A stretch of 35,599 nucleotides of DNA from the UHGV virus genome UHGV-0130975, one strand, 5' to 3'. Every line of letters starts with the position of its first letter. Position 1 is the stretch's first letter. This stretch comes from a virus. Shown here in pieces: positions 1,294 through 28,875 of this stretch. The position numbers and the translations under genes are program-made. The notes beneath the pieces are model-generated. The model was not told the origin of the DNA and ran no database searches. It saw only the letters and a list, made by a program, of their open reading frames with translations.

Positions 1294-1425
1294 TTAATTT
1301 GCTCCAGATACAAGGAATCGCCGCAGCATGGCTACGGTTGGTGTTTGTTGCATACCGAAATGGTACGATTGTTGATTTGTACAGTAGGTTTTACGATGCC
1401 ATTCCACCCATTTGGTGAGGCATTG

Positions 1426-1683
1426 ATGATGTACAGCAAATACGATGAGGCGCAGTTCCACTTGAGGCTTACGCACGAGTTGCACGCTAAGATTAAGCAA
1501 CGTGCAAAAATGAATAACAGGTCTATCAATTCCGAAATTGTGGCTACGATGGAAGAATCACTCTCCAAACCATCACCTGTAAGCGGGTATCGTGATGAAG
1601 AAGAGAGGCTGGCCTCATTAATCTCGGAACGAGTAAAAGAAGTTGTGGCTGATATCCTTAGAAAAGAAAAAACCCGCGATTAA
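1426..1683 (+). CDS. mnt: Mnt-like ribbon-helix-helix repressor (85 aa)
   Basis: ATG 1426 with GGTGAGG 7 nt upstream. N-terminal RHH motif (FHLRLTHELHAKIKQRAKMNNRSINSEIV) and C-terminal SKPSPVSGYRDEEERLA segment recalled as P22 Mnt-like. The longer ORF-track start (1345) lacks an RBS. Confidence 0.75.
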   Translation: MMYSKYDEAQFHLRLTHELHAKIKQRAKMNNRSINSEIVATMEESLSKPSPVSGYRDEEERLASLISERVKEVVADILRKEKTRD

Positions 1684-1692
1684 GCGGGTTTA
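1660..1692 (-). terminator. Rho-independent terminator ending the minus-strand antirepressor operon (also a weak terminator for mnt on the plus strand)
   Basis: Hairpin AACCCGC / GCGGGTT (1671-1690) with loop containing the mnt stop codon; on the minus strand it is followed by a U-rich tract (plus-strand A-run 1660-1670). Confidence 0.6.
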
Positions 1693-1697
1693 GTTGG

Positions 1698-1919
1698 TTA
1701 GTTATCAAAAAGTCCGTACGTTTCTTCTTCTTCAGGTGTAAGGGGAAGAATCTCTACTCTATCTATAGATACCTTTTCAATGTACCCATGAGGTCTACTT
1801 AAAATTAAAGCTCTCTCATGCCACAGAACTCCAAGAATGTGATACCTTCCAGCATCGCCTTTTACCCTGGCTCTTCCTTTGATTCTTGGCGGCATAATGC
1901 CATATTTTTTCTTTGCCAT
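1698..1919 (-). CDS. Hypothetical protein (73 aa), last gene of the antirepressor operon
   Basis: ORF-track frame; its ATG overlaps the stop of the upstream antirepressor-like gene (TAATG), suggesting translational coupling. No recognisable motif. Confidence 0.4.
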   Translation of the reverse strand: MAKKKYGIMPPRIKGRARVKGDAGRYHILGVLWHERALILSRPHGYIEKVSIDRVEILPLTPEEEETYGLFDN

Positions 1920-2644
1920 TATGCAACATTACTCCCATGAATCAGGTGTTGTAGTGCTTTAACACCTTCCGCATTGTAGCGGAACGCCTCTACCTGTTTG
2001 CTGGAATGCGCAGATTTATCTAGGAAGAACTTGCCGTACTGCTCAGTTTTGAGGTTGTTTGCGTTAGCAATGCGACCAATCTTGTTGGCCGTTACTCCAA
2101 GCTGCTCTGCAACCTCCCCTGCTGAGTAGTAATGCTCTTCTATTGCTGGAAGAGGTATTGCATTAAAACCAACGATCGGGTTGATTATGCTTGCTGCCGC
2201 AGTCTGCTTTGCCTCAGGCGCAAGATTTGGCATCAGATCGAACAGATTGGTAACAGCTTCAACCGTCATTTTCAATGTTCGCGCTTGACGATACTCAACA
2301 AGTCCACTCGCTGATTTACCGCTTTTAATGTGTGCTTCCTGCATACTTTCAAGTTTGTCTACAAGTGTTCGGCGAACTGCTTTAGATTCGCGAGCAGCAA
2401 CACGAAGCGCCTGCTTGATAGTCATGGAGATAACATCAATGTCAGCCCCGTTTTTCCGACCTACACTTTTTGTGTAGGTCTCGCCCTCCAATTCATCCTC
2501 AATTTTCTCGATGAATTTGTTGTTACGTACTGATGGCTCTCCACATAACTTGCGAGCTTCATTAACCATCATCAGAAGACTTTGGCTGTCAATGGTTTTA
2601 TCCGTGACAACGGATCCGATGTTTGCTACATTCTTAAAAGTCAT
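1919..2644 (-). CDS. Antirepressor-like protein (AntA-type N-terminus, KilA-C/ANT-type C-terminus), about 242 aa
   Basis: Start placed at MTFKNVANIG (ATG 2644-2642) with AAGGA 7 nt upstream. C-terminal segment (AIEEHYYSAGEVAEQLGVTANKIGRIANANNL) resembles the HTH-containing C-terminal domain of phage antirepressors. Family assignment is from memory. Confidence 0.6.
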   Translation of the reverse strand: MTFKNVANIGSVVTDKTIDSQSLLMMVNEARKLCGEPSVRNNKFIEKIEDELEGETYTKSVGRKNGADIDVISMTIKQALRVAARESKAVRRTLVDKLESMQEAHIKSGKSASGLVEYRQARTLKMTVEAVTNLFDLMPNLAPEAKQTAAASIINPIVGFNAIPLPAIEEHYYSAGEVAEQLGVTANKIGRIANANNLKTEQYGKFFLDKSAHSSKQVEAFRYNAEGVKALQHLIHGSNVA

Positions 2645-2732
2645 TAGGCATTCCTTATGTGGTAGTAAGGGTGTGACATAGGCCGCCAGCAGCACACTGG
2701 CGGTTTTCTTTTTGCGCCGTCCGGCGCACCAA

Positions 2733-3359
2733 TCAATGAATCCATTCCTCGCCGCGCAGTTTTGCCAGTATTGGCTGAGCGTTCTTTACGACAAAATTGT
2801 TGGTATCAAGATTCTTCATTTCACGAAGAAGTGATTTCTTGGTTTCTTCTGACATGTAGCGAGTCTCATATGCAATATCGTAAATCCTTCCTGAAAGCTC
2901 AGAACCAATTTGCTTCATTCCTGGGTAGATGTGTTTGCACATTTGTTGACTCTTCTCCATCCACAATTGTAAGTAGCAGAGATTAACCAGTTCTTCGTCA
3001 GTAAACTGTTTTGCAATCGGTGAGCATTCTGCCTGCCGATCCAAAATATCCAGCACCCAGCGGCGGAACTCTTTGGCTACCGGAGTGCGAGCAAACATCG
3101 CGATTAGGTGGGCACCGCGTAGTGAGAAAACTCGCACTTTTTTGCGATAATTTCCTGAGGTACTCACTTCGAGTACCTGAGTCATTCCGGCGCTAAACTC
3201 ATCGCTATACTTGTTATAAATCATTGTTACTGCACGACTATTTGCGTATTTAAGTGCAGATGCAATATTAGATGATGTAAACCAAACACCATGCATATCA
3301 CGGGTGGGCACCAACTCAACTCCGTGGAAGTTGTAATCTGATTTTGCTACAATATTCAT
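2733..3359 (-). CDS. ant: Antirepressor Ant with Bro-N domain (about 208 aa)
   Basis: Start at MNIVAKSDYNFHG (ATG 3359-3357) with AAGGA RBS. N-terminal segment NFHGVELVPTRDMHGVWFTSSNIASALKYAN is a typical Bro-N/AntA motif. Sits directly downstream of arc as in P22 immI. ORF-track start 3443 would overlap arc and lacks an RBS. Confidence 0.7.
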   Translation of the reverse strand: MNIVAKSDYNFHGVELVPTRDMHGVWFTSSNIASALKYANSRAVTMIYNKYSDEFSAGMTQVLEVSTSGNYRKKVRVFSLRGAHLIAMFARTPVAKEFRRWVLDILDRQAECSPIAKQFTDEELVNLCYLQLWMEKSQQMCKHIYPGMKQIGSELSGRIYDIAYETRYMSEETKKSLLREMKNLDTNNFVVKNAQPILAKLRGEEWIH

Positions 3360-3432
3360 GTTAGTTTCCTTGCATACGGTTACTGACATAGAGGCCCAGT
3401 TTGTGTTCGCGCACTGCTGGGCTTCACTATTT

Positions 3433-3606
3433 TTACTGGGCATTAGCTCTTTCCTCTCTCAGGCTTTTAGCCAGTCGCTGCACAATCGCAGAGTTGATAG
3501 AAATTCCATCCATTTCAGCAACACGTCTAATCTCCTCCTTCATTCGCGCTGGCAAACGAAGCTGAAAACTTTGACTTTTACGACCTGTGTAAAGCACATC
3601 TTTCAT
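3433..3606 (-). CDS. arc: Arc-like ribbon-helix-helix repressor (57 aa)
   Basis: Not in the ORF track (under 60 aa). ATG 3606-3604 preceded by a perfect AGGAGG 7 nt upstream. Translation MKDVLYTGRKSQSFQLRLPARMKEEIRRVAEMDGISINSAIVQRLAKSLREERANAQ has the RHH beta-strand/helix pattern (QLRLP...INSAIV) of P22 Arc. Confidence 0.7.
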   Translation of the reverse strand: MKDVLYTGRKSQSFQLRLPARMKEEIRRVAEMDGISINSAIVQRLAKSLREERANAQ

Positions 3607-3618
3607 AAGTAATCCTCC

Positions 3619-3675
3619 TATAATGATACCAACTTGGTTCTAGAACCAATTTAACACCATTTATTTTGATGTCAA
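3619..3675. promoter_or_regulatory. Divergent promoter/operator region between arc-ant (minus) and the 106-aa RHH gene (plus)
   Basis: Perfect 16-bp palindrome TTGGTTCTAGAACCAA at 3634-3649 with a partial repeat AAGTTGGT at 3674-3681. Plus-strand TATAAT at 3619-3624; minus-strand TTGACA (complement of 3670-3675) with a TAAATT/TTAAAT -10 candidate overlapping the palindrome. Confidence 0.55.
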
Positions 3676-3717
3676 GTTGGTGCTATTGTTTAGCGAACAT
3701 CTTTACGTTGAGGTCAT

Positions 3718-4038
3718 ATGAGCAAGTTCCCTAGTCATGAAATGGATAGGTTCAATATCAGGCTTCCTGCAGGAATGCGGGATGCTATAGCTGAACGAGC
3801 CAAACGTAACGGCAGATCAATGAACTCAGAGATTGTTCAGATACTGGAAGATGCCTTGAATGCAGAAAATACACTCGGGGAAATAGCAGATAAAATCAAC
3901 AGCGTCTCGGTTCCGCTAAATGTTGATGCGCTAGTTCAACTTCAAGCCCAGGTTATCGCCATGCAAAAAGAAATACAGGAAAAGTTCAGAGAGCAGAACG
4001 AAAAGTTGAGAGAACTGCTAAACAAAAAACCCACCTGA
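3718..4038 (+). CDS. Ribbon-helix-helix (Arc/Mnt family) repressor with C-terminal coiled coil (106 aa)
   Basis: N-terminal FNIRLPAGMRDAIAERAKRNGRSMNSEIVQILEDAL is a classic Arc/MetJ RHH signature; C-terminus is heptad-like (LVQLQAQVIAMQKEIQEKFREQNEKLRELL). Transcribed divergently from arc-ant, the position P22 mnt occupies. Confidence 0.7.
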   Translation: MSKFPSHEMDRFNIRLPAGMRDAIAERAKRNGRSMNSEIVQILEDALNAENTLGEIADKINSVSVPLNVDALVQLQAQVIAMQKEIQEKFREQNEKLRELLNKKPT

Positions 4039-4063
4039 AGGTGGGTTAATTTTTGCCTTTTTT
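4027..4063 (+). terminator. Rho-independent terminator after the 106-aa RHH gene
   Basis: Hairpin AAAACCCACC-TGAA-GGTGGGTT (4027-4047) followed by AATTTTTGCCTTTTTT. Confidence 0.7.
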
Positions 4064-4136
4064 GGACCATATTGACTACTCATAAAATGAGATCAATATT
4101 TAATCGCCCAATAACGAGTGCATGTTGAGGTATATC

Positions 4137-4316
4137 ATGGCGAAAAAACCAGGTGAAAACACAGGAAAAAACGGCGGAATATACCAAGAAGTTGGCCCGC
4201 GCGGCGGTAAGAAAGACAATTTTGCCACCGTCAAGGACAACGAAAGGCTTCCACCAACAACAAAGCCAGGTCATGGCTGGGTATTAGATAAGCGAACTCC
4301 AGACAGCAAAAAGTAA
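4137..4316 (+). CDS. Small YjzC-like protein (59 aa)
   Basis: ATG 4137 with GAGG 6 nt upstream. MAKKPGENTGKNGGIYQEVGPRGGKKDNFATVKDNERLPPTTKPGHGWVL resembles, from memory, the KPGE...NGG.Y.E.G...G...LPPT...GHxW pattern of the YjzC-like small-protein family. Own terminator immediately downstream. Confidence 0.5.
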   Translation: MAKKPGENTGKNGGIYQEVGPRGGKKDNFATVKDNERLPPTTKPGHGWVLDKRTPDSKK

Positions 4317-4321
4317 TAATC

Positions 4322-4346
4322 AAGCCGGGTCACTCCGGCTTTTTGA
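4322..4346 (+). terminator. Rho-independent terminator after the YjzC-like gene
   Basis: AGCCGG-GTCACT-CCGGCT hairpin followed by TTTTT (4341-4345). Confidence 0.6.
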
Positions 4347-4695
4347 TATGTCGCTCGCAGAACTCAACAAGCCTGCTCATTAAGTAGCAGTAAGTCTCGT
4401 TGGCTCTTCCTGGTTCAACATCAACACCGACCCTTGAGCAGATATCGAATGCCATGTGAGCGCACTCATGGGCAATAGTAGATAGTTTGCCATTGAACAC
4501 GCCTATCACATGCAAAACACCATTCTCGCTGCTCATTGTATGAGACGCTCCGTTGGCATCCGAGTCCTGCACGTCCACACCAAGTTTTTGATGCAGGCGT
4601 TGCCATTCTGGAAAGTCTCTACAAAACACAATTGTACCGCTCTCAAAGAGCGGAACGAGCATTTTTGGTACGTTTCCAATGTTAACTTTTTTCAT
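4330..4695 (-). CDS. HExxH-motif protein (121 aa), possible small zincin-like metallopeptidase-fold protein
   Basis: ORF-track frame. Contains AHECAHMAF, i.e. an HExxH motif in a predicted helix, with a downstream acidic residue (VEPGRANETY) that could serve as a third ligand. Co-directional with the late operon, in the position where P22 carries sieA. Confidence 0.55.
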   Translation of the reverse strand: MKKVNIGNVPKMLVPLFESGTIVFCRDFPEWQRLHQKLGVDVQDSDANGASHTMSSENGVLHVIGVFNGKLSTIAHECAHMAFDICSRVGVDVEPGRANETYCYLMSRLVEFCERHIKKPE

Positions 4696-4725
4696 GGTAT
4701 CCTGCGCAAAACTAAGGAGGTTGGT

Positions 4726-5055
4726 GTGCTTGAATGGTTTCTGTTGGCTGCATTAGTCGTTTCTAGTTTGGTGTATGAGTATCGAATGCACTCTCTAACA
4801 AAAAAAATAGGAATTCTAGAAAACGAATATTGTGCTCTCAAATCCTCACTGGAACGTGAGCAAGGAGACTTAAAAATCTCTCTGTCTAGCATTGAGCGTT
4901 CTATAGAGAGCCTAGAGGATAAGGTTGATCGTATAAAGAATGAGGATATTCATGATATTAAGGACGACATATCCTTCTTAAAATCTTGGTTGAAAAATGT
5001 TGGTAAAATTGCCACATCAACACGAGATAAGCTCAATCCATCCATGGATGACTAA
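4726..5055 (+). CDS. Small membrane-anchored coiled-coil protein (110 aa, GTG start), low-GC moron
   Basis: GTG 4726 preceded by AAGGAGG 5 nt upstream. N-terminal hydrophobic helix (LEWFLLAALVVSSLVY) followed by a heptad-rich charged region (ILENEYCALKSSLEREQGDLKISLSSIERSIESLEDKVDRIKNEDIHDI). The ORF-track upstream extension is noncoding-looking. Visibly AT-richer than the flanking late genes; stop abuts the gp16 stop (convergent). Confidence 0.55.
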   Translation: MLEWFLLAALVVSSLVYEYRMHSLTKKIGILENEYCALKSSLEREQGDLKISLSSIERSIESLEDKVDRIKNEDIHDIKDDISFLKSWLKNVGKIATSTRDKLNPSMDD

Positions 5056-7182
5056 TTACTCCTGTGCCATTCCGCTAAGCGATGCCACAATTCCAGCCCT
5101 TGCTAAACGCTGGAACTCTTCGTTTCCTAGTGCCTCGCGTATTGCTTTTACGGCGGCCTTATTTGCCATAAATCTGCGTTCCGCCGCCGCTAATGCTTCT
5201 TTGCTTCCGCCTGCTCTTACTGCTTTAGTTGCTTCCTGAACTGCTTTCTCTATCGCATACCGACCACTACGTGTGGTGGCAATTTTAGATACAGCGCCTT
5301 TTAACCCAGCGCCAACTAAAGCACCTGCGGCAGCGCCTGCAATGCCTCCTCCAGCGCCACCAACAATGGCACCTGATGTTGAATTGGCAATTGCATTTAA
5401 CACTGTTGATGTGACGTTGGATAAACCAGCATCCAGATCGCGTAGTACATTGGCAGTTCTACCTGTTCTTTCAATATACTGCTGAGGTTTCACTGCTGCT
5501 CTTGCAAGAGTGCCATATGCATCAGCAATTCTTCCAAGCTCTGAGGAATATCGGCTAATGGCTTTTACATTTTGTGGAGTCAGTATCTCTGCGATATGGT
5601 TAATTCCTGCTGCATCAGCTTTGCCACCACGTACACCATGCGAGATAGCATCTTGCAACATTGATGAAATAGCAGGAACACGCTCTGATTCTGGCAGCGC
5701 GCGGATCATAGAATGGAATCCAGCAGGACCATTAAGACCTTTAGCTGACGATGATTGAAGGGATTTTACTCCATTCGTAATCAGTGCATCTGTTGCCAAA
5801 TCACGCCCGAAAACAGACTCTGCACTCTCTTGTGCTGATAACCTCGCTTTAGACAGATCATTAGCTTTCTGCCAGTCATCAAGAAATCCGCCGTTTTCCG
5901 CCATTGTGCGCATATCATCAGTAATTGCCCGGCGTATTTCCCCTGCTCTCCTTGCCGCATTTGCCTCTCCGCTACGCTTATATTTTTGCTCCGCATCAGC
6001 AAATTTCGCTCTCCATGCTTTCATGCCATCAAATGTTACTCCACCTTGATTGTTTGCCTGAACAAACTGTTTCATTTCAGGAGTAAGCGGTATGCCAGCA
6101 GATCGCTCTGCCTGAATAACGGCATTACCATTTAGCATTCTTGCTTTTTGATTTGGCATTGTTGACCGCACGTCATCCCATGCCGCGCGCTCGGCATCCT
6201 TCATCTGATCAAGATTTTGAAGAATCCTTTGTTTTATAGCCGCACTTTTTTCTGATGCCGTTCCAGATGTGGCCCCAAATTCATCAAGGTTTCGACTTAA
6301 CTTTGATGATATTTCGTTAAATGCTGCCTGATGGGCGTCCTGAACAATTCCAGGTGTTGATGCCAATGCGCCTTCGGCTTGTGCAATTCCACGACTTCCA
6401 GATCGCATTCCTGGTGTTAATGCGTTTATATCAATTCCAGCAGACTCAGCCGCTTTTGCTACATCTTCGGACACATTAGCGGCCTGACTGGCAATTGACT
6501 GACGCCCAGCACCTGACTTTGCCATCCTAGAAACATCATTAGCAGAATTCAGTGCTGCACCACCAAGAGCCTGTGAAACCCTTGGCGCAATAACGCGCCC
6601 GACACCTGAAAGAACGCCTTGAGCACCAATATTGATACCACCGTTAATGGCAGCATTTTGTGCAAAATCACCCTCCTGATTTGCAGCATCAGCAAGAGAA
6701 CCTGCAATCATGTTTCCTGCGGAACCGATGTCTCCTGCGAGCTTTGCTGGCGCTCCAGCAACTTTTGCCGCTGTGCCAATTGGCAGGAGATACCCACCAA
6801 TTGTTTCACCGGCTTGCGCCCAAGGGTCTGTCGGTCGATCGACAGGGCGATAAACATCATCCAAAACCTTGGGGCCACCAAGCCCCTGGCTGATTGCATT
6901 AATCAGACTTGCGCCACCCTGCAATACGTCAAATGGTATGTTTACCAGACCACGACCAGCCTGTTCTGCAATTTGCCCTGCACTTTGACCACCAGTGAGC
7001 CAATCGCCAGCTTGTTGCATCAATGATGGTTCTTCCCGTGTTGGTGCATTATTGTCCTGATTAACTGTTTGTTGCTGAACAGCCTGACCAGCAAAATACT
7101 CATCAATGGCGGTGCCAATATCTTCCGTGCTCGTACCATCAGGGAAGGTAAATGTCTTACCGTTTGCAGTTACTTTCATCAT
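5056..7182 (-). CDS. DNA ejection (injection) protein, P22 gp16-like (708 aa)
   Basis: Last gene of the late operon in the P22 order 7-20-16; Gly/Ala-rich with a C-terminal [17 protein letters not shown] hydrophobic segment typical of ejection proteins. Confidence 0.8.
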
Positions 7183-13827: not shown

Positions 13828-14721
13828 TTATTTTTTTGCCTTTTTAGCGGCGAAATACGGCGTCCAGTCACCAGTTTCCAGCGCCTTGGCTTTCAGTTTG
13901 TCGAGGTTATTGATTACTGCGCCGTTGCTCCCCTTAACTGTCGGGGTTGTGGCTGCCGTGGTTTTTGCTTTTGGCATGATTCTTGCCTTCGATTCGATAC
14001 GTTCCAGCAGACGACCAATTGCTACGGGGTTGGTAGCTTCTGCCAGTTGCTTGCGCAGTTCAGCGTTGCGACCGAGCGCCAGAACAACGATTTCCGGCTT
14101 CTCTGACTCAAACAGGATCGCGTTTTGTGTCTCTATGGGGATTTCCTCGAGTACGGCCTGTTCAGCTTCCTGATAGCCAGGAACCTTGAGAGCCTTAACA
14201 CGTTGCTGATATTTGGATAATCGCTCTTGATAGGCAGCCTGAAGCTCCTGCTCCTTCTGCTTGCGAGCCATCTCCTGTTGCTGGTATTTGCCGTTGTCCT
14301 CCGCCCACTTAGCCATGCGTTGCTGGTAGATTTCTTCATCGAAACCGATGTCCTCATCATCCAGTTTTGGCATTCGCGGTGGTTGAGTGATTACCGGCTG
14401 CTGCTCGACGGGTTTCTGAGACTGACGCATCAGCTCTTTCAGCTCGCGGTCTTTCTCTTTAATCGTCTTGCGCAGGTGTTTTACCAGTCCATGCTCTGCG
14501 CTATCTTCGCTGGTTGGCGAATCCAGCTTTTCGTCACCAAAGTAGAATTCCTGTTCTGATTCGTCGTCATCAGTGTCAGTAGCTTCCTCTGCATCATTTC
14601 CTGAGGACTCACTGCCATCTGCTTTTTCGACTTCTTCAGCCAGTTCGACATCATCAGGAATCTGCTCTGACGCGTCGGTTTCGATTTCAACTTCTGGTGT
14701 GTTTTCTGCCATCTGGTCCAT
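13828..14721 (-). CDS. Scaffolding protein, P22 gp8-like (297 aa)
   Basis: Highly acidic N-terminus, long charged helical region, and lysine-rich C-terminal helix-turn-helix-like end (...LDKLKAKALETGDWTPYFAAKKAKK); located between portal and coat. Confidence 0.85.
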   Translation of the reverse strand: MDQMAENTPEVEIETDASEQIPDDVELAEEVEKADGSESSGNDAEEATDTDDDESEQEFYFGDEKLDSPTSEDSAEHGLVKHLRKTIKEKDRELKELMRQSQKPVEQQPVITQPPRMPKLDDEDIGFDEEIYQQRMAKWAEDNGKYQQQEMARKQKEQELQAAYQERLSKYQQRVKALKVPGYQEAEQAVLEEIPIETQNAILFESEKPEIVVLALGRNAELRKQLAEATNPVAIGRLLERIESKARIMPKAKTTAATTPTVKGSNGAVINNLDKLKAKALETGDWTPYFAAKKAKK

Positions 14722-19212: not shown

Positions 19213-19584
19213 CTACTGTTCGCTTAGCTTCTGCTTCAGCAAGTAACCTTCGAGCATCCAGATTTTGTTTACAGCATTCTGCCGGGCAATCTTCCGACCA
19301 ATTTCTGCATCAAAATTTTCCGGACTTGCACAGGAACTCTCTCCGGTGACGGTGAAGCCGTTGCGCAGCACCAGGACGCAGAACGTCAGCAGAGAAAGTG
19401 ATTCGTGCGGCTGGTAGTTTACCTCTCCGCCAGTATGTTTCGCTTTTATGGCTTTGCCAAAGGCACCATCCTCTGCTGTGAAATATGCCTCCTGAGCAAT
19501 AATTCCTTCGATATGGTCTGGCGTAACGCGCGGTGCCGTTTTGCCTTTCTCAACAATTTCTTTTTCGATTTGCTGGTCGTTCAT
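19213..19584 (-). CDS. Conserved phage protein of unknown function (123 aa)
   Basis: ORF-track frame with a protein-like composition; no motif I can name with confidence. Confidence 0.5.
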   Translation of the reverse strand: MNDQQIEKEIVEKGKTAPRVTPDHIEGIIAQEAYFTAEDGAFGKAIKAKHTGGEVNYQPHESLSLLTFCVLVLRNGFTVTGESSCASPENFDAEIGRKIARQNAVNKIWMLEGYLLKQKLSEQ

Positions 19585-19817: not shown

Positions 19818-20297
19818 TTAAATGATTTGCCAGTCTTCAGCCATCAGGTCGCCAATGGATGGAACCCATGTAGCAAGGCGGTTCTGTGAGTTTTTCAATA
19901 CAAGCGTGTCATTGAAAGTTGGCTCGCCAACATATTCGCCAAAGCCATAACCCAACGCAGACGCTAATTTTTCCCCTTTCACGAGATAAACAAACTGGTC
20001 TTTCCCATTCCATCCTGCCCGCTGCAAACTTTTGCCCTGTTTTAACGCTTCCATGGCAAGGCCGAAACTTAGTCCTGATACCGGACGATAAGCCCTTTCG
20101 AATACTTCTTTTGGACTCCAGCTAACGTAGCCATCAAAGCGATCGGTGTTAGGTTTTCCGCCATCCAGATATTCAACCAGATAGCCTTCGTCCTCGCCGT
20201 TTTCTCCGGCAGGAAGCTGCCAGCCACGAAAATCGTTATATGCCTGTCTCGTCATCGGAAAGGCGTTAATCAGTTTTACGCCAATATGCTGGGTCAT
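19818..20297 (-). CDS. Protein with C-terminal DUF2829-like (Tad2-like) domain; start uncertain (alternatives 20255 or 20420)
   Basis: C-terminal about 85 aa (FGLAMEALKQGKSLQRAGWNGKDQFVYLVKGEK...ATWVPSIGDLMAEDWQII) fits my recollection of the DUF2829 signature (EALxxLKxGKxVxRxGWNGK ... W.PSQ.DLLAEDWEI). None of the three candidate starts has a strong RBS. Confidence 0.5.
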   Translation of the reverse strand: MTQHIGVKLINAFPMTRQAYNDFRGWQLPAGENGEDEGYLVEYLDGGKPNTDRFDGYVSWSPKEVFERAYRPVSGLSFGLAMEALKQGKSLQRAGWNGKDQFVYLVKGEKLASALGYGFGEYVGEPTFNDTLVLKNSQNRLATWVPSIGDLMAEDWQII

Positions 20298-20519
20298 AAA
20301 ATTACCTATGGAGTTGGGAATAAAAAACCCCGCGAATGCGAGGCTAAATCCTGGTATTTGTAATGAACTGGCTCTTATCTCAACGCAGCCCCTTACCGCG
20401 CGCCAGATGCTCAATATCAAGCATCAGCAATGAGATGTTTAATCTGGATTTACTCCAGAAGTGATCACCACCCTGTCTACAGAGCCAGATGTGAAGGATG
20501 ATGAGTAAAATTATCGCTA

Positions 20520-26554: not shown

Positions 26555-27931
26555 TCATACGTCAGCCCCTTGTGCATATCGTCTGCCACGTGCAGCGGGT
26601 GCATTTGATGTTGTGCAAATCTGTCTGGCTTCATCCTGGTCACATGCAACAAAGTGTCCGTTGCAGAACCGCTGGTAAACCGTACCAAGTGAACCAAAAC
26701 GGTTTTTCGTCACGATGATTTCAGCAAATGGCGCGGCGCTACTGTTCTCGTCATATACCGCTTCCCGATAGAGCATGATGATTGAGTCTGCGTCCTGCTC
26801 AATGCTTCCTGAATCACGCAAATCTGCGTTTGTCGGGCGTTTGTTTGGTCGCTTCTCAACATCGCGCGAAAGCTGACTCAGGGAGATAACCGGTGTTTTC
26901 AGGTCTTTCGCCATCGCCTTCAGGCTTCCGGAGATGTGAGCAATTGCAAGGTCGTTGCGATCTGCTTTCGGCTTCTCAATCAGGCCAAGATAATCCGCCA
27001 TGATGAGTGACAGGTTTGGATTTTCCTGTTTGTGCCGTTCTGCGATTGAGCGTATTTCTTCGACCGATAACCGCGAGGCATCGACTACCCATACATCCAA
27101 ATCTGCAAGCTGACTCATGCCGTTAGCAACACGTGCCCAGCCCTCGTCATCCATCGATGCAGGATTTCGCAGTACGCTAACCGACATCCTCCCGGCGTTG
27201 GCAATGCTCCGCTCTGCAATCTGCAATGCGCTCATTTCCATCGAGAAAATCAATACTCCGCGCCGGACGTCAGAACCAGGAATAACGCGGCTTGCAACAC
27301 CTTCGGCAATCTTTAGCGCCAGTTCGGTTTTCCCCATACCAGGACGAGCGGCGATAATCACCAGGTCTTCAGCGTTCATCCCTCCGGTGATAGCGTCAAG
27401 TTCTTCGATTCCGGTCTTCAGGGTATCTGACTCTTCTCCGTTCCTCAGACGCCTGTCAAGCGTGTCAGTGTAGTCAGTGATGATTTCCCCTAACCGTACA
27501 GGTTTAACCTCGTCACGGGGCTTTCTGATGGCTGAAAGACGCTTTACAAGTTCATCCATCGCCTGACTCGATGCGTCGATGGTTCCGCTCTGAATTGGTT
27601 CACGCATTTCATCCATGATGTCCAGCACCAGACGGCGGTGATAGTTATCCGCGACCATTCCGGCATATCCCTTCAGGTTTGCGGCACTCGGGCAGTTTTT
27701 GCTGGTCATCAGGATTGACGTGAAATGCTCCTCTCCGCACGCCTCGGCAACCATCAGCGCGTCGATTAGGTTTCTGTTTCGCGCCTGCTTGCGGATAACC
27801 TCGAAGGCTTTCCGGTAGAGCGGAATTGAAAACGCTTCCGGCTCAAGCGTTGCCAGAACGTCACTGGCGGTTGGAGTTAATCCACCAATCAGCAGGCCAC
27901 CGATAACGCTCGCTTCGATATCCTGTCTCAT
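26555..27931 (-). CDS. Replicative DNA helicase, DnaB family (458 aa)
   Basis: Walker A ([16 protein letters not shown]), Walker B-like ([10 protein letters not shown]) and DnaB C-terminal motifs ([38 protein letters not shown]). Confidence 0.95.
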
Positions 27932-28875
27932 GCAATCCCCCTGTCTGCAAACTTCCCTTCCCGAACTCCCGTTAACGAGTCTTCCCTCAGCAGGTAATCA
28001 AAATCAGCCGTCCAGCCCGTGTCGTTGTCTCCGAAGTAAAACGGCTTGGCCTGATGCACAAACGCCCTGACATACGCTCTGAAACCGTCCACATTTGGCG
28101 TTTTCAGTTGCGGGATGATTTTCTTCAGGCGGCGTTTGCGTTTCTCGTTGACCGCAACAGCGTGTGGCAGTCTGTCACCGACTTCGGTGTTGTAGGCGTT
28201 CAGGAAGGATTCGTAGTCGATTCGTTCTGCCTTGCGACGTTCAGGTTTAACCTGCCCATCGCCTCCCCCATTGGGGGGTAGGGGGGTATTATTTATATTC
28301 TTGTTAATACCTTCTTGTTCATGATGTGCGGTTGTTTGTGCGGCTTCATGTGCGCTTTCATGTGCGGCATGTACGCTGAAAGCCGCGCCATTACTGGCTT
28401 CGTCATGTGCGGCGTCATGTGCGGTTGTTTGTGCGGCTTCATGTGCGGGTGAATTGTCCATTTTTTGAGCATATTCATGGTAATTTGTGATGGTGATCAC
28501 ACGACCTTTTTGCTTCTCTCCATCAATGGAGATCATCCCCTCTTTCACAAAAACCTGAAGCATCCGCTCAACCTGATCGCGGCTTGCTGGCTTGCCATGC
28601 CTGTCGCATAACTGAAGACCTAAATCAGCTGCTGTCACAACCAGTTGACCGGGTTGCAGATGCCATTCATGACCTTTGAAATTCGCTTTGTATGGCTTTC
28701 TGGCGGCATTCAGGAGAAGGTTTTCCCACAGGGTGCGAAGATAAACATCTTTCGCCCATGACTGTTTCAGAATGCTCCGGTACAACGGAATGTAACCAGT
28801 TTTCTGGTTCTCCATCCTGTTGCTCCTGCGCTCGTGTGCGGCGCTGAAATCGTAGATTTTTGCTGTATTGCTCAT
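27928..28875 (-). CDS. Replication initiator / replisome organiser (O-like, 315 aa) with internal origin
   Basis: N-terminus [10 protein letters not shown]... resembles lambdoid initiator N-termini; the central linker is encoded by origin iterons (HEAAQTTAH... repeats); ATGA overlap with the downstream helicase gene. Confidence 0.8.
28266..28449. repeat. Replication origin inside the initiator gene: about 9 tandem 12-bp iterons, AT-rich tract and G/C palindrome
   Basis: Minus-strand CCGCACATGA(A/C) motif repeated with 12-bp period across 28318-28449; AT-rich stretch 28285-28312; CCCCCATTGGGGGG palindrome 28266-28280. Order in the coding direction (iterons then AT-rich) is the same as lambda ori. 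Confidence 0.75.

What the first reader, a model, noticed from the sequence alone, without database searches (positions are those of the whole stretch)
4330..4695. Stand-alone 121-aa HExxH protein
AHECAHMAF is an HExxH motif and a downstream Glu (GRANETY) could be a third zinc ligand, suggesting a minimal zincin-like metallopeptidase fold. The protein is far smaller than typical phage proteases. Small HExxH domains do occur as processing modules in mobile-element polyvalent proteins and as ImmA-type anti-repressor proteases, so this could be a regulatory protease or a toxin/effector.
Basis: partly seen in the sequence, partly recalled or inferred. Interest (0 to 1): 0.6.

Follow-up and report, generated by a model that had tools for sequence, protein, structure and literature searches.

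The report
Small phage zinc-protease-like gene hkcC
The 121-residue ORF is a real, conserved gene (hkcC of phages P22 and HK620, function never determined) that almost certainly encodes a minimal zinc metallopeptidase of a large uncurated phage family, but its target is unknown and nothing supports a role in cleaving the neighbouring repressors.

Summary
Observation confirmed. Window 4330-4695 (minus strand) is a 121-aa ORF with HECAH at residues 76-80 and E100. It is 100% identical to hkcC of HK620 and to an unannotated ORF of P22, in the "ant moron" between ejection gene 16 and tailspike gene 9.

It belongs to a family of at least 547 clusters, nearly all stand-alone proteins of about 120 aa. 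In 50 diverged members (23-44% identity) the only invariant residues are H76, E77, H80 and E100, a gluzincin tetrad with thermolysin spacing.

AlphaFold (pLDDT 89) gives sheet, helix, hairpin, HExxH helix, Glu helix. A profile-profile comparison links the family to the zincin-like domain of N4 virion RNA polymerase (92%, E 7e-7). No Pfam, NCBIfam or PADLOC model matches, and PHROG 1365 is "unknown function".

ImmA-type, SprT-type and thermolysin-family membership all fail. Homologues sit in lytic-sense operons of temperate phages and in early or middle regions of virulent phages. The only conserved neighbour of the HkcC subfamily is a convergent YjzC-like gene (orf59a).

Best reading: an accessory cytoplasmic metallopeptidase made during lytic growth, target unknown. 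It is a new member of a known kind, of moderate interest.

The parts
4330..4695 (-). hkcC coding sequence, 121 aa, 13.6 kDa, pI 6.3, no transmembrane segment
   Evidence: 100% identical to HK620 hkcC and to P22 13861-14223
4456..4470 (-). codons for H76-E77-C78-A79-H80 (HExxH: two predicted zinc ligands and the general-base Glu)
   Evidence: invariant in 50 diverged homologues; lies on predicted helix 71-88
4396..4398 (-). codon for E100, predicted third zinc ligand, first residue of helix 100-116, within the NETxCYL motif
   Evidence: invariant; aligned with thermolysin E166; +19/+20 spacing in 146 of 177 relatives
4700..4703 (-). weak Shine-Dalgarno AGGA, 4 nt before the ATG
   Evidence: read directly from the sequence
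4813..4841 (-). promoter-like site (TTGAGA-17-TAGAAT, 10 of 12) inside the divergent hkcB-like gene; low confidence
   Evidence: the number of sites found is not above the shuffle expectation
4322..4341 (.). bidirectional hairpin terminator shared with orf59a; its stem and loop encode the last codons and the stop codon of hkcC (KKPE*)
   Evidence: annotated as bidirectional terminator tORF59A in HK620
4137..4316 (+). orf59a, a 59-aa YjzC-like protein (an upstream ATG at 4122 would give 64 aa); convergent with hkcC and its only conserved neighbour
   Evidence: Pfam YjzC E 1.7e-3, below cut-off, and phrog_3202; adjacent to hkcC in P22, HK620, L011, L012, L013 and L006-9

Best explanation
hkcC encodes a soluble cytoplasmic minimal zinc metallopeptidase of the gluzincin type. 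It is a free-standing relative of the zincin-like 'MPTase' domains that phages and plasmids fuse into polyvalent proteins.

Inferred mechanism: H76 and H80, one turn apart on helix 71-88, and E100, at the start of helix 100-116, hold a Zn2+ ion. E77 activates the bound water. The substrate peptide lies against the edge strand 59-66 that leads into the active-site helix. The near-invariant Y104 (ExxxY, where thermolysin has ExxxD) lines the site.

The gene is an accessory 'moron'. In every context examined it points the same way as the surrounding lytic operon. Here that is the late operon, between ejection gene 16 and tailspike gene 9. It should therefore be made during lytic growth by read-through, and it should cut a host or rival-element protein rather than the adjacent repressors.

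In the HkcC subfamily it travels as a two-gene cassette with the convergent YjzC-like orf59a. In P22, orf59a lies on the prophage-expressed mnt transcript. A functional link between the two (inhibitor, substrate or antagonist) is likely but unproven.

Shown: the gene is real and selected, the four residues are conserved, the predicted topology is zincin-like, the family is homologous to the N4 vRNAP zincin-like domain, and the gene contexts are as described. Inferred: metal binding, peptidase activity, timing of expression, the target, and the link to orf59a.
For: Invariant H76/E77/H80/E100 among 50 homologues of 23-44% identity. Family of 547 clusters, nearly all about 120 aa. Spacing and local sequence align with the thermolysin/neutral protease HExxH...NE segment (E 0.1). 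AlphaFold model with pLDDT 89 and pTM 0.83, elements in the order strand, strand, helix, hairpin, HExxH helix, Glu helix; this is the core described for zincin-like MPTases in PMC5512222. hhalign against the N4-like vRNAP C1 region gives Prob 92%, E 6.6e-7, score 48; 20 column shuffles score at most 21. Sub-threshold hits fall on zincins only: SprT-like in 16 of 50 members, astacin, reprolysin, M48, M50. Structural neighbours in BFVD include proteins named SprT-like or Metalloprotease. Purifying selection. Lytic-sense position in all contexts and early/middle position in virulent phages. hkcC-orf59a adjacency persists down to 43% identity and in four different genomic positions. In P22, orf59a lies between mnt and the mnt terminator.
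Confidence: 0.55

Rival explanations
1. HkcC is one half of a two-gene conflict module with Orf59a. It would be a protease toxin/effector held in check by, or acting on, the small lysogen-expressed YjzC-like protein, and the pair would work as a prophage defence, exclusion or lysis-lysogeny switch.
For: The cassette is conserved from 100% down to 43% HkcC identity and moves between unrelated positions: the P22-like ant moron, the tail gene cluster of L011/L012, and after the O/P replication genes in L013. There is 1:1 co-occurrence in P22-like phage records. orf59a is antisense to lytic transcription and downstream of mnt in P22. YjzC-like genes recur as antisense morons in Gram-positive phages. 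The cassette sits next to sieA/hkcB, a known exclusion locus.
Against: No PADLOC hit for either protein. The genes are convergent, not an operon. Most family members (Orf-129 subfamily, virulent-phage homologues) have no orf59a. YjzC-like genes elsewhere have no zincin partner.
Confidence: 0.15
2. ImmA/IrrE-type regulatory protease: HkcC cleaves the neighbouring Arc/Mnt-type or CI repressors to flip immunity.
Confidence: 0.05
3. SprT/Spartan-like DNA-associated protease that removes proteins trapped on phage DNA during replication or packaging.
For: SprT-like is the commonest sub-threshold Pfam hit (16 of 50 members, best E 1e-4). Some homologues lie next to terminase genes, between helicase and DNA polymerase, or near ParB/helicase genes. 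A few long members end in basic tails.
Against: The Pfam matches cover only about 19 residues around HExxH, at 11-13 bits against a cut-off of 25.6. There is no zinc-ribbon or DNA-binding subdomain. The protein is mildly acidic (pI 6.3, family median 6.2). The predicted third ligand is Glu, whereas SprT/Spartan use His (my own knowledge, not tested here).
Confidence: 0.08
4. A trans-acting processing protease for a phage protein, for example an ejection protein encoded just upstream. This would be the solo equivalent of the self-processing role proposed for MPTase domains of polyvalent proteins.
For: Homology to the N4 vRNAP MPTase domain, for which PMC5512222 proposes processing roles. Position directly after ejection genes 7-20-16.
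Against: The one known processing event, removal of 20 N-terminal residues of gp7, is attributed to host OpdA in the curated P22 record. The cassette also occurs in siphovirus-type prophages and after replication genes. Per PMC11016777, replacement of sieA or of mnt-ant by a kanamycin cassette left P22 viable, whereas the 16-sieA-mnt-ant-9 deletion, which also removes essential genes 16 and 9, was not; no deletion isolating hkcC was described.
Confidence: 0.07
5. Not a peptidase: a metal-binding or other hydrolytic protein that shares the HExxH-E site, or a spurious ORF overlying the PsieA promoter and the mnt terminator, as in the curated P22 annotation.
For: P22 record BK000583 annotates only regulatory sites here. 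No significant match to any solved peptidase.
Against: The spurious-ORF reading is excluded by the 547-cluster family, by full-length conservation without stops and by dN/dS 0.07-0.24. The invariant general-base Glu argues for catalysis rather than structural metal binding.
Confidence: 0.1

Closest known systems
Zincin-like metallopeptidase (MPTase) domains of phage/plasmid polyvalent proteins, e.g. the C1 subdomain of N4 virion RNA polymerase (Iyer et al. 2017, PMC5512222; PMC13434306)
   Same: The core order of elements is the same: sheet, N-terminal helix, HExxH helix, Glu helix. The profile-profile match covers the backing helix, hairpin and HExxH helix (Prob 92%, E 6.6e-7). Both are phage-borne, and the function of both is only predicted.
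   Different: HkcC is a 121-aa solo protein with nothing fused to process. It has no long insert between the two catalytic helices. It is encoded as a moron or early gene, not as part of a giant virion protein.
Thermolysin-type gluzincins (M4) and minimal gluzincins
   Same: HExxH followed 20 residues later by NE, the third-ligand Glu. The local alignment spans strand, HExxH helix and Glu helix.
ImmA/IrrE (peptidase M78) anti-repressor proteases
   Same: Small HExxH...E proteins of mobile elements; here the gene lies in an immunity region.
   Different: No Pfam match, no cognate HTH repressor partner, neighbours not conserved, and homologues present in virulent phages.
SprT-like / Spartan / Wss1 (PF10263)
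   Same: The HExxH helix gives sub-threshold Pfam hits in a third of members. Some BFVD structural neighbours carry this name.
   Different: The match is below the gathering score and limited to about 19 residues. There is no DNA-binding or zinc-ribbon part, and the ligand is Glu rather than His.
Phage-derived metzincin plus TIMP-like inhibitor pair of Listeria (PMC8235301)
   Same: A precedent for a phage-borne metalloprotease travelling with a small partner protein.
   Different: That pair is secreted/lipoprotein and belongs to another zincin branch. Any HkcC-Orf59a interaction is hypothetical.

Membership tests
Zincin-like MPTase superfamily (gluzincin type) | HExxH on an alpha-helix | tested here: met
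   H76-E77-x-x-H80 is invariant and lies on predicted helix 71-88.
Zincin-like MPTase superfamily (gluzincin type) | Third-ligand Glu on the next helix | tested here: met
   E100 is invariant, is the first residue of helix 100-116, and is spaced +19/+20 in 146 of 177 relatives. 3-D distances were not measured because no coordinates were available.
Zincin-like MPTase superfamily (gluzincin type) | Beta-sheet plus backing helix preceding the active-site helix | tested here: met
   Model elements: E11-13, E21-25, H28-37, E49-56, E59-66, then H71-88.
Zincin-like MPTase superfamily (gluzincin type) | Significant profile similarity to an accepted member | tested here: met
   hhalign against N4-like vRNAP C1: Prob 92%, E 6.6e-7, score 48, against at most 21 in 20 shuffles.
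Zincin-like MPTase superfamily (gluzincin type) | Zinc binding and peptide-bond hydrolysis | not testable with these tools
   Needs purified protein.
ImmA/IrrE (Peptidase_M78, PF06114) | Match to the family model | tested here: not met
   No hit for HkcC at E<=10, nor for any of 50 members at E<=1.
ImmA/IrrE (Peptidase_M78, PF06114) | Conserved pairing with a cognate repressor gene | tested here: not met
   RHH/Ant genes are absent next to hkcC in HK620, L011 and L013. The sister subfamily lies between the lysis and terminase genes. Homologues occur in virulent phages.
SprT-like (PF10263) | Score at or above the Pfam gathering threshold over the domain | tested here: not met
   The query does not hit. 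16 of 50 members hit at E<1 (best 1e-4). The matches inspected cover 17-19 residues at 11-13 bits against a cut-off of 25.6.
SprT-like (PF10263) | Accessory zinc-binding or DNA-binding subdomain | tested here: not met
   The whole 121-aa protein is taken up by the catalytic core. pI is 6.3.
Thermolysin family (M4) | HExxH, 20 residues, then NExxxD, within a two-domain fold | tested here: not met
   The spacing and the NE are met, but D is replaced by Y104, E is only 0.1, and the flanking domains are absent.
Solved minimal zincins (e.g. 3e11, Zincin_1) | Fold match | tested here: inconclusive
PF18894 PhageMetallopep | Profile similarity | tested here: not met
   hhalign Prob 1.3% against the L006 member.
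Known anti-phage defence or toxin-antitoxin systems | Match to a PADLOC model | tested here: not met
   No hit for HkcC or Orf59a.

The most novel reading that the evidence does not exclude
hkcC and orf59a form a mobile two-gene module in which a protease made only from lytic transcripts and a small YjzC-like protein made in the lysogen oppose each other. For example, the protease removes a prophage-expressed exclusion/defence factor or a host immune protein when the phage goes lytic, or Orf59a is its inhibitor. This would be a new kind of protease-based conflict or switch module in the classic P22 immI region.
Probability: 0.15. Interest if true: 0.7.

Novelty: new member of a known kind. Interest (0 to 1): 0.42.

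Why it matters
P22 and HK620 are model phages, yet this gene has been listed as 'unknown function' since 2001 and is not even annotated in the curated P22 record. Assigning it to the zincin-like metallopeptidases gives a concrete biochemical hypothesis: four point mutants to make and a metal to look for. The hypothesis applies to a family of at least 547 sequence clusters spread over temperate and virulent phages, and to 247 of 5426 complete E. coli genomes, where the three genes under the matched segment, hkcC among them, are annotated 'hypothetical protein'. The link to the HExxH domain of N4 virion RNA polymerase, whose role is also unknown, means that work on the small, tractable solo protein could inform the giant one. 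The conserved pairing with orf59a points to a testable partner.

Tried and rejected
(1) Curated libraries gave nothing for HkcC. Pfam, NCBIfam and PADLOC had no hit, and PHROGs returned only an 'unknown function' family.

(3) The search for related loci with the diverse alignment failed for lack of a conserved stretch. The closer alignment worked.

(4) A relation to the neighbouring-type family PF18894 PhageMetallopep was rejected by hhalign.

(5) I looked for a second copy in the window and found none.

(6) Domain fusions in the longer family members showed no Pfam domains, only low-complexity Lys/Glu/Ala tails.

(7) I considered HkcC as the protease that trims gp7. This was rejected because the curated P22 record attributes that cut to host OpdA.

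(9) Literature searches for hkcC, SieA/P22, SprT-like phage proteases, YjzC and phage zincins found no functional study of this gene.

(10) YjzC-like genes of Gram-positive phages were checked for an adjacent zincin. None was found.

Full report
1. THE OBSERVATION

Window 4330..4695 holds a 121-codon ORF on the minus strand, with an ATG start and a TGA stop. AHECAHMAF is residues 75-83 and GRANETY is residues 96-102. The motif is therefore H76-E77-x-x-H80, with E100 twenty residues after the second His.

A weak AGGA lies 4 nt before the ATG. The last codons and the stop codon sit inside a hairpin at 4322-4341 that scores as a terminator on both strands.

On its own the motif is not remarkable. 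Shuffles of this protein give HExxH 1.9% of the time, and HExxH plus a suitably spaced Glu 0.4% of the time. The six-frame translation of the window has four HExxH. The protein has no hydrophobic segment (maximum 19-residue Kyte-Doolittle mean 1.07), a mass of 13.6 kDa and a pI of 6.3.

2. WHAT THE GENE IS CALLED AND WHERE IT SITS

The protein is 100% identical to HkcC of coliphage HK620. It is also 100% identical to an ORF at 13861-14223 of Salmonella phage P22.
- HK620 annotates hkcC as a hypothetical protein followed by 'bidirectional terminator tORF59A'.
- The curated P22 record has no CDS there. It annotates only the sieA promoter and the mnt terminator.
- The first P22 sequence (AF217253) matches at only 72%. 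This probably reflects sequencing errors and may explain the missing annotation (inference).
- Villafane et al. [quoted passage not shown]
- I found no later functional work.

The window is a P22-like (HK620/CUS-3-like) E. coli prophage or phage. On the minus strand the order is as follows, with plus-strand genes in brackets:
- ejection genes 7, 20 and 16 (16 ends at 5056)
- [hkcB-like, 4726-5055]
- hkcC
- [orf59a, 4137-4316]
- [106-aa Arc-like RHH, 3718-4038]
- Arc-like gene
- two antirepressor genes
- [Mnt-like gene]
- tailspike gene 9, starting at about 1293 and running off the window start

hkcC therefore lies in the sense orientation of the late operon, in the 'ant moron'.

3. IS IT A REAL GENE?

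Yes.
- A word-indexed search found 32 relatives.
- An exhaustive profile search found 547 cluster representatives at E<=1e-3, of which 151 are at E<=1e-10. Nearly all are 105-140 aa.
- In the sister subfamily dN/dS is 0.07-0.24. In the HkcC subfamily synonymous sites are saturated while pN is 0.27-0.37.
- 247 of 5426 complete E. coli genomes carry the segment. PGAP annotates the three genes under the matched segment, hkcC among them, as 'hypothetical protein'.

4. IS IT A ZINCIN?

(a) Conservation. In 50 members sharing 23-44% identity with HkcC, the only invariant columns are H76, E77, H80 and E100. P15, G49, F83 and C103-Y104-L105 are at least 90% conserved. 170 of 177 relatives keep HExxH, and most of the exceptions are fragments. 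The ExxxY Glu lies at +19 or +20 in 146.

(b) Sequence similarity to known zincins. phmmer against PDB sequences puts neutral protease (E 0.1) and thermolysin (E 0.7) on top. HExxH aligns with HExxH, and 'RANE' aligns with 'GA[IL]NE', which places E100 at the position of thermolysin E166 (the residue numbers are from my own knowledge of thermolysin).

(c) Predicted structure. AlphaFold2 with an 18-sequence alignment gives pLDDT 89 and pTM 0.83. The elements are strand 11-13, strand 21-25, helix 28-37, hairpin 49-56/59-66, helix 71-88 (HExxH) and helix 100-116 (starting at E100). Iyer et al. 2017 describe the zincin-like MPTase core as a sheet flanked by an N-terminal helix, followed by an HExxH helix and a Glu helix (PMC5512222). 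The model has that order.

(d) Other weak sequence hits. The family profile weakly hits myroilysin, BMP1/tolloid and residues 2187-2234 of the N4 virion RNA polymerase (E 0.09-1.3). Scanning 50 members against Pfam gives sub-threshold hits almost only to zincins: SprT-like in 16 members (best E 1e-4), plus DA1-like, M48, reprolysin, astacin and M50.

(e) Direct test of the N4 lead. I fetched the region from six N4-like phages, aligned it and ran hhalign against the family alignment. The result was Prob 92%, E 6.6e-7, score 48, covering the backing helix, the hairpin and the HExxH helix. The reversed alignment scored 12.4 and 20 column-shuffled controls scored 9.3-21.3. That N4 region is the one Iyer et al. 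unified with zincin-like MPTases. The 2026 N4 structure paper also notes its HExxH (PMC13434306).

(f) Limits of the evidence.
- No solved structure matches significantly.
- Foldseek against the PDB finds nothing.
- Foldseek against BFVD finds 26 phage proteins at E<1e-3, a few of them named SprT-like or Metalloprotease.
- I had no coordinates, so the metal-site geometry is inferred, not measured.

5. WHICH ZINCIN FAMILY?

None of the curated ones.
- Pfam, NCBIfam and PADLOC give nothing. PHROG 1365 (E 1e-39) is 'unknown function'.
- SprT-like matches cover only 17-19 residues, at 11-13 bits against a cut-off of 25.6.
- Peptidase_M78 (ImmA/IrrE) is never hit.
- PF18894 is unrelated.
- Thermolysin-family membership fails on the domain architecture and on ExxxD.

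The best description is a solo, uncurated branch of the zincin-like MPTase superfamily.

6. GENOMIC CONTEXT

Two subfamilies occur in enterobacterial temperate phages.

The Orf-129 subfamily (38-40% identity to HkcC) includes ST64T orf-129, phage L Orf129, epsilon34 gene 70 and ST104 orf47.
- It lies between the lysis cassette and the small terminase gene, in the late-operon sense.
- The same position holds in mEp021 and in prophages of Kluyvera, Citrobacter, Mixta and Atlantibacter.
- A metagenomic phage has its homologue just upstream of its terminase and P22-type portal genes.
- Another has it between DUF5675 and the Rz spanin, right after a holin.
- Some P22-like phages carry both subfamilies. 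This window has only hkcC.

The HkcC subfamily is always followed by a convergent 59-66-aa gene, orf59a. That gene is YjzC-like (Pfam E 1.7e-3, below cut-off) and falls in phrog_3202.
- The pair is found in P22, HK620, this window, Xenorhabdus L011, Proteus L012, Pasteurellaceae L013 and metagenomic L006-9, where HkcC identity is only 43%.
- The cassette occupies different positions: the P22-like ant moron, between the major tail protein and the tape measure in L011, after the major tail protein with Mnt/Ant genes in L012, and after the O/P-like replication genes in L013.
- In each case hkcC runs with the flanking operon and orf59a runs against it.
- In P22, orf59a lies between mnt and the mnt terminator, so it is probably made in the lysogen (inference).
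- YjzC-like genes also occur alone, for example antisense to the head operon of Clostridium phage phiCT9441A.

Virulent phages carry solo homologues among early or middle genes. In the N4-like phages phCDa and Kpn16-P2 the gene is in the block divergent from the terminase. In the KP34-like phage P1010 it lies between the helicase and the DNA polymerase. Other metagenomic contexts are uninformative.

7. INTERPRETATION

The conserved tetrad, the topology and the N4 link make a functional zinc metallohydrolase, most likely a peptidase, the best-supported reading (about 0.7-0.8 for that step).

The biology is much less certain. The gene behaves as an accessory gene: it sits in moron hot spots in temperate phages and in early or middle regions in virulent ones, and it always lies in the lytic sense. 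This suggests a cytoplasmic activity during lytic growth, directed at a host or rival-element protein. Iyer et al. list that option for MPTase domains. Because HkcC has no fused domains, self-processing of a polyprotein does not apply.

The mobile hkcC-orf59a cassette suggests a functional partner, but I could not test this.

The ImmA idea is contradicted by the context and by the lack of an M78 match. The SprT/DNA idea lacks a DNA-binding part and a family-level match. The gp7-processing idea is excluded because the P22 record assigns that cut to host OpdA.

8. NOVELTY AND SCORE

The ORF and its name are known. Its function is not, and no curated family covers it. Recognising it as a solo zincin-like MPTase with a conserved YjzC-like partner makes it a new member of a known kind.

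It is a useful, testable lead in two model phages and in a large family, but it is not a surprise to a specialist, since HExxH proteins are common in phages. Interest is about 0.4.

Noticed in passing
window 4137-4316 (+) (alternative start at 4122): orf59a: a Gly/Pro-rich 59-aa YjzC-like protein (consensus KPGExTGKxGGIYxEVGPRGG...LPPT...W...RTPDSK). It is highly conserved (60-79% identity where HkcC is 43-63%) and always convergent with hkcC. YjzC-like genes also sit alone, antisense to structural operons, in Gram-positive phages.
   Followed up: partly
window 4726-5055 (+): hkcB-like gene (109 aa, phrog_5962, unknown function). It has a strong TAAGGAGG ribosome-binding site and a GTG start, an N-terminal hydrophobic segment and then a coiled-coil-like region. 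It occupies the place that superinfection-exclusion gene sieA has in P22 and is divergent from hkcC with only 30 nt between the start codons. It may be an exclusion analogue.
   Followed up: partly
window 4322-4341: The shared bidirectional terminator hairpin encodes the C-terminal KKPE and the stop codon of hkcC. The KKP[EA] ending is conserved in relatives down to 43% identity, which suggests a dual constraint from the protein tail and the RNA hairpin.
   Followed up: no
window 1345-4038: An enlarged immI-like region. It has three Arc/Mnt-type RHH genes (1345-1683 +, 3433-3606 -, 3718-4038 +) and two antirepressor genes: 2733-3443 (-), with Bro-N plus P22_AR_C domains, and 1919-2695 (-), in phrog_1726. 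A small 73-aa ORF lies at 1698-1919 (-). A second bidirectional terminator-like hairpin is at 4028-4047.
   Followed up: partly
L035-L040 (N4-like virion RNA polymerase, N4 residues about 2176-2235): The solo HkcC family is detectably homologous to the HExxH (C1/MPTase) region of the giant N4 virion RNA polymerase. Some N4-like phages (KP8, phCDa, Kpn16-P2) also carry a solo homologue among their small genes. Further downstream the vRNAP has an 'ALNEFMAWGL' stretch that resembles the family's 'ANETxCYLL' Glu-helix motif. hhalign, however, aligned E100 to the nearer 'AIENLEGL' helix, so the true third ligand in the vRNAP is unclear.
   Followed up: partly
L006 1330-1968 (+): In the metagenomic contigs that carry the 43%-identity cassette, a 212-aa PF18894 'putative phage metallopeptidase' gene lies 200 nt beyond orf59a. 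This places two unrelated HExxH proteins side by side.
   Followed up: partly
GenBank records AF217253.1, BK000583.1 and KR296688.1: Annotation oddities. The first P22 sequence matches HkcC at only 72% (probable sequencing errors). The corrected curated P22 record still has no CDS for it. Salmonella phage 34 labels the identical ORF 'GNAT family acetyltransferase', which nothing here supports.
   Followed up: no
window 19213-19584 (-) and 19818-20420 (-): The lysis-to-terminase gap, where other P22-like phages carry the Orf-129 paralogue, holds two other genes of unknown function in this window (phrog_322 and phrog_872).
   Followed up: no
window about 28348-28362 (-): A second HExxH (HESAH, followed by HHEQE) lies inside the 315-aa ORF 27928-28875. 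I took it as a chance occurrence and did not examine it.
   Followed up: no
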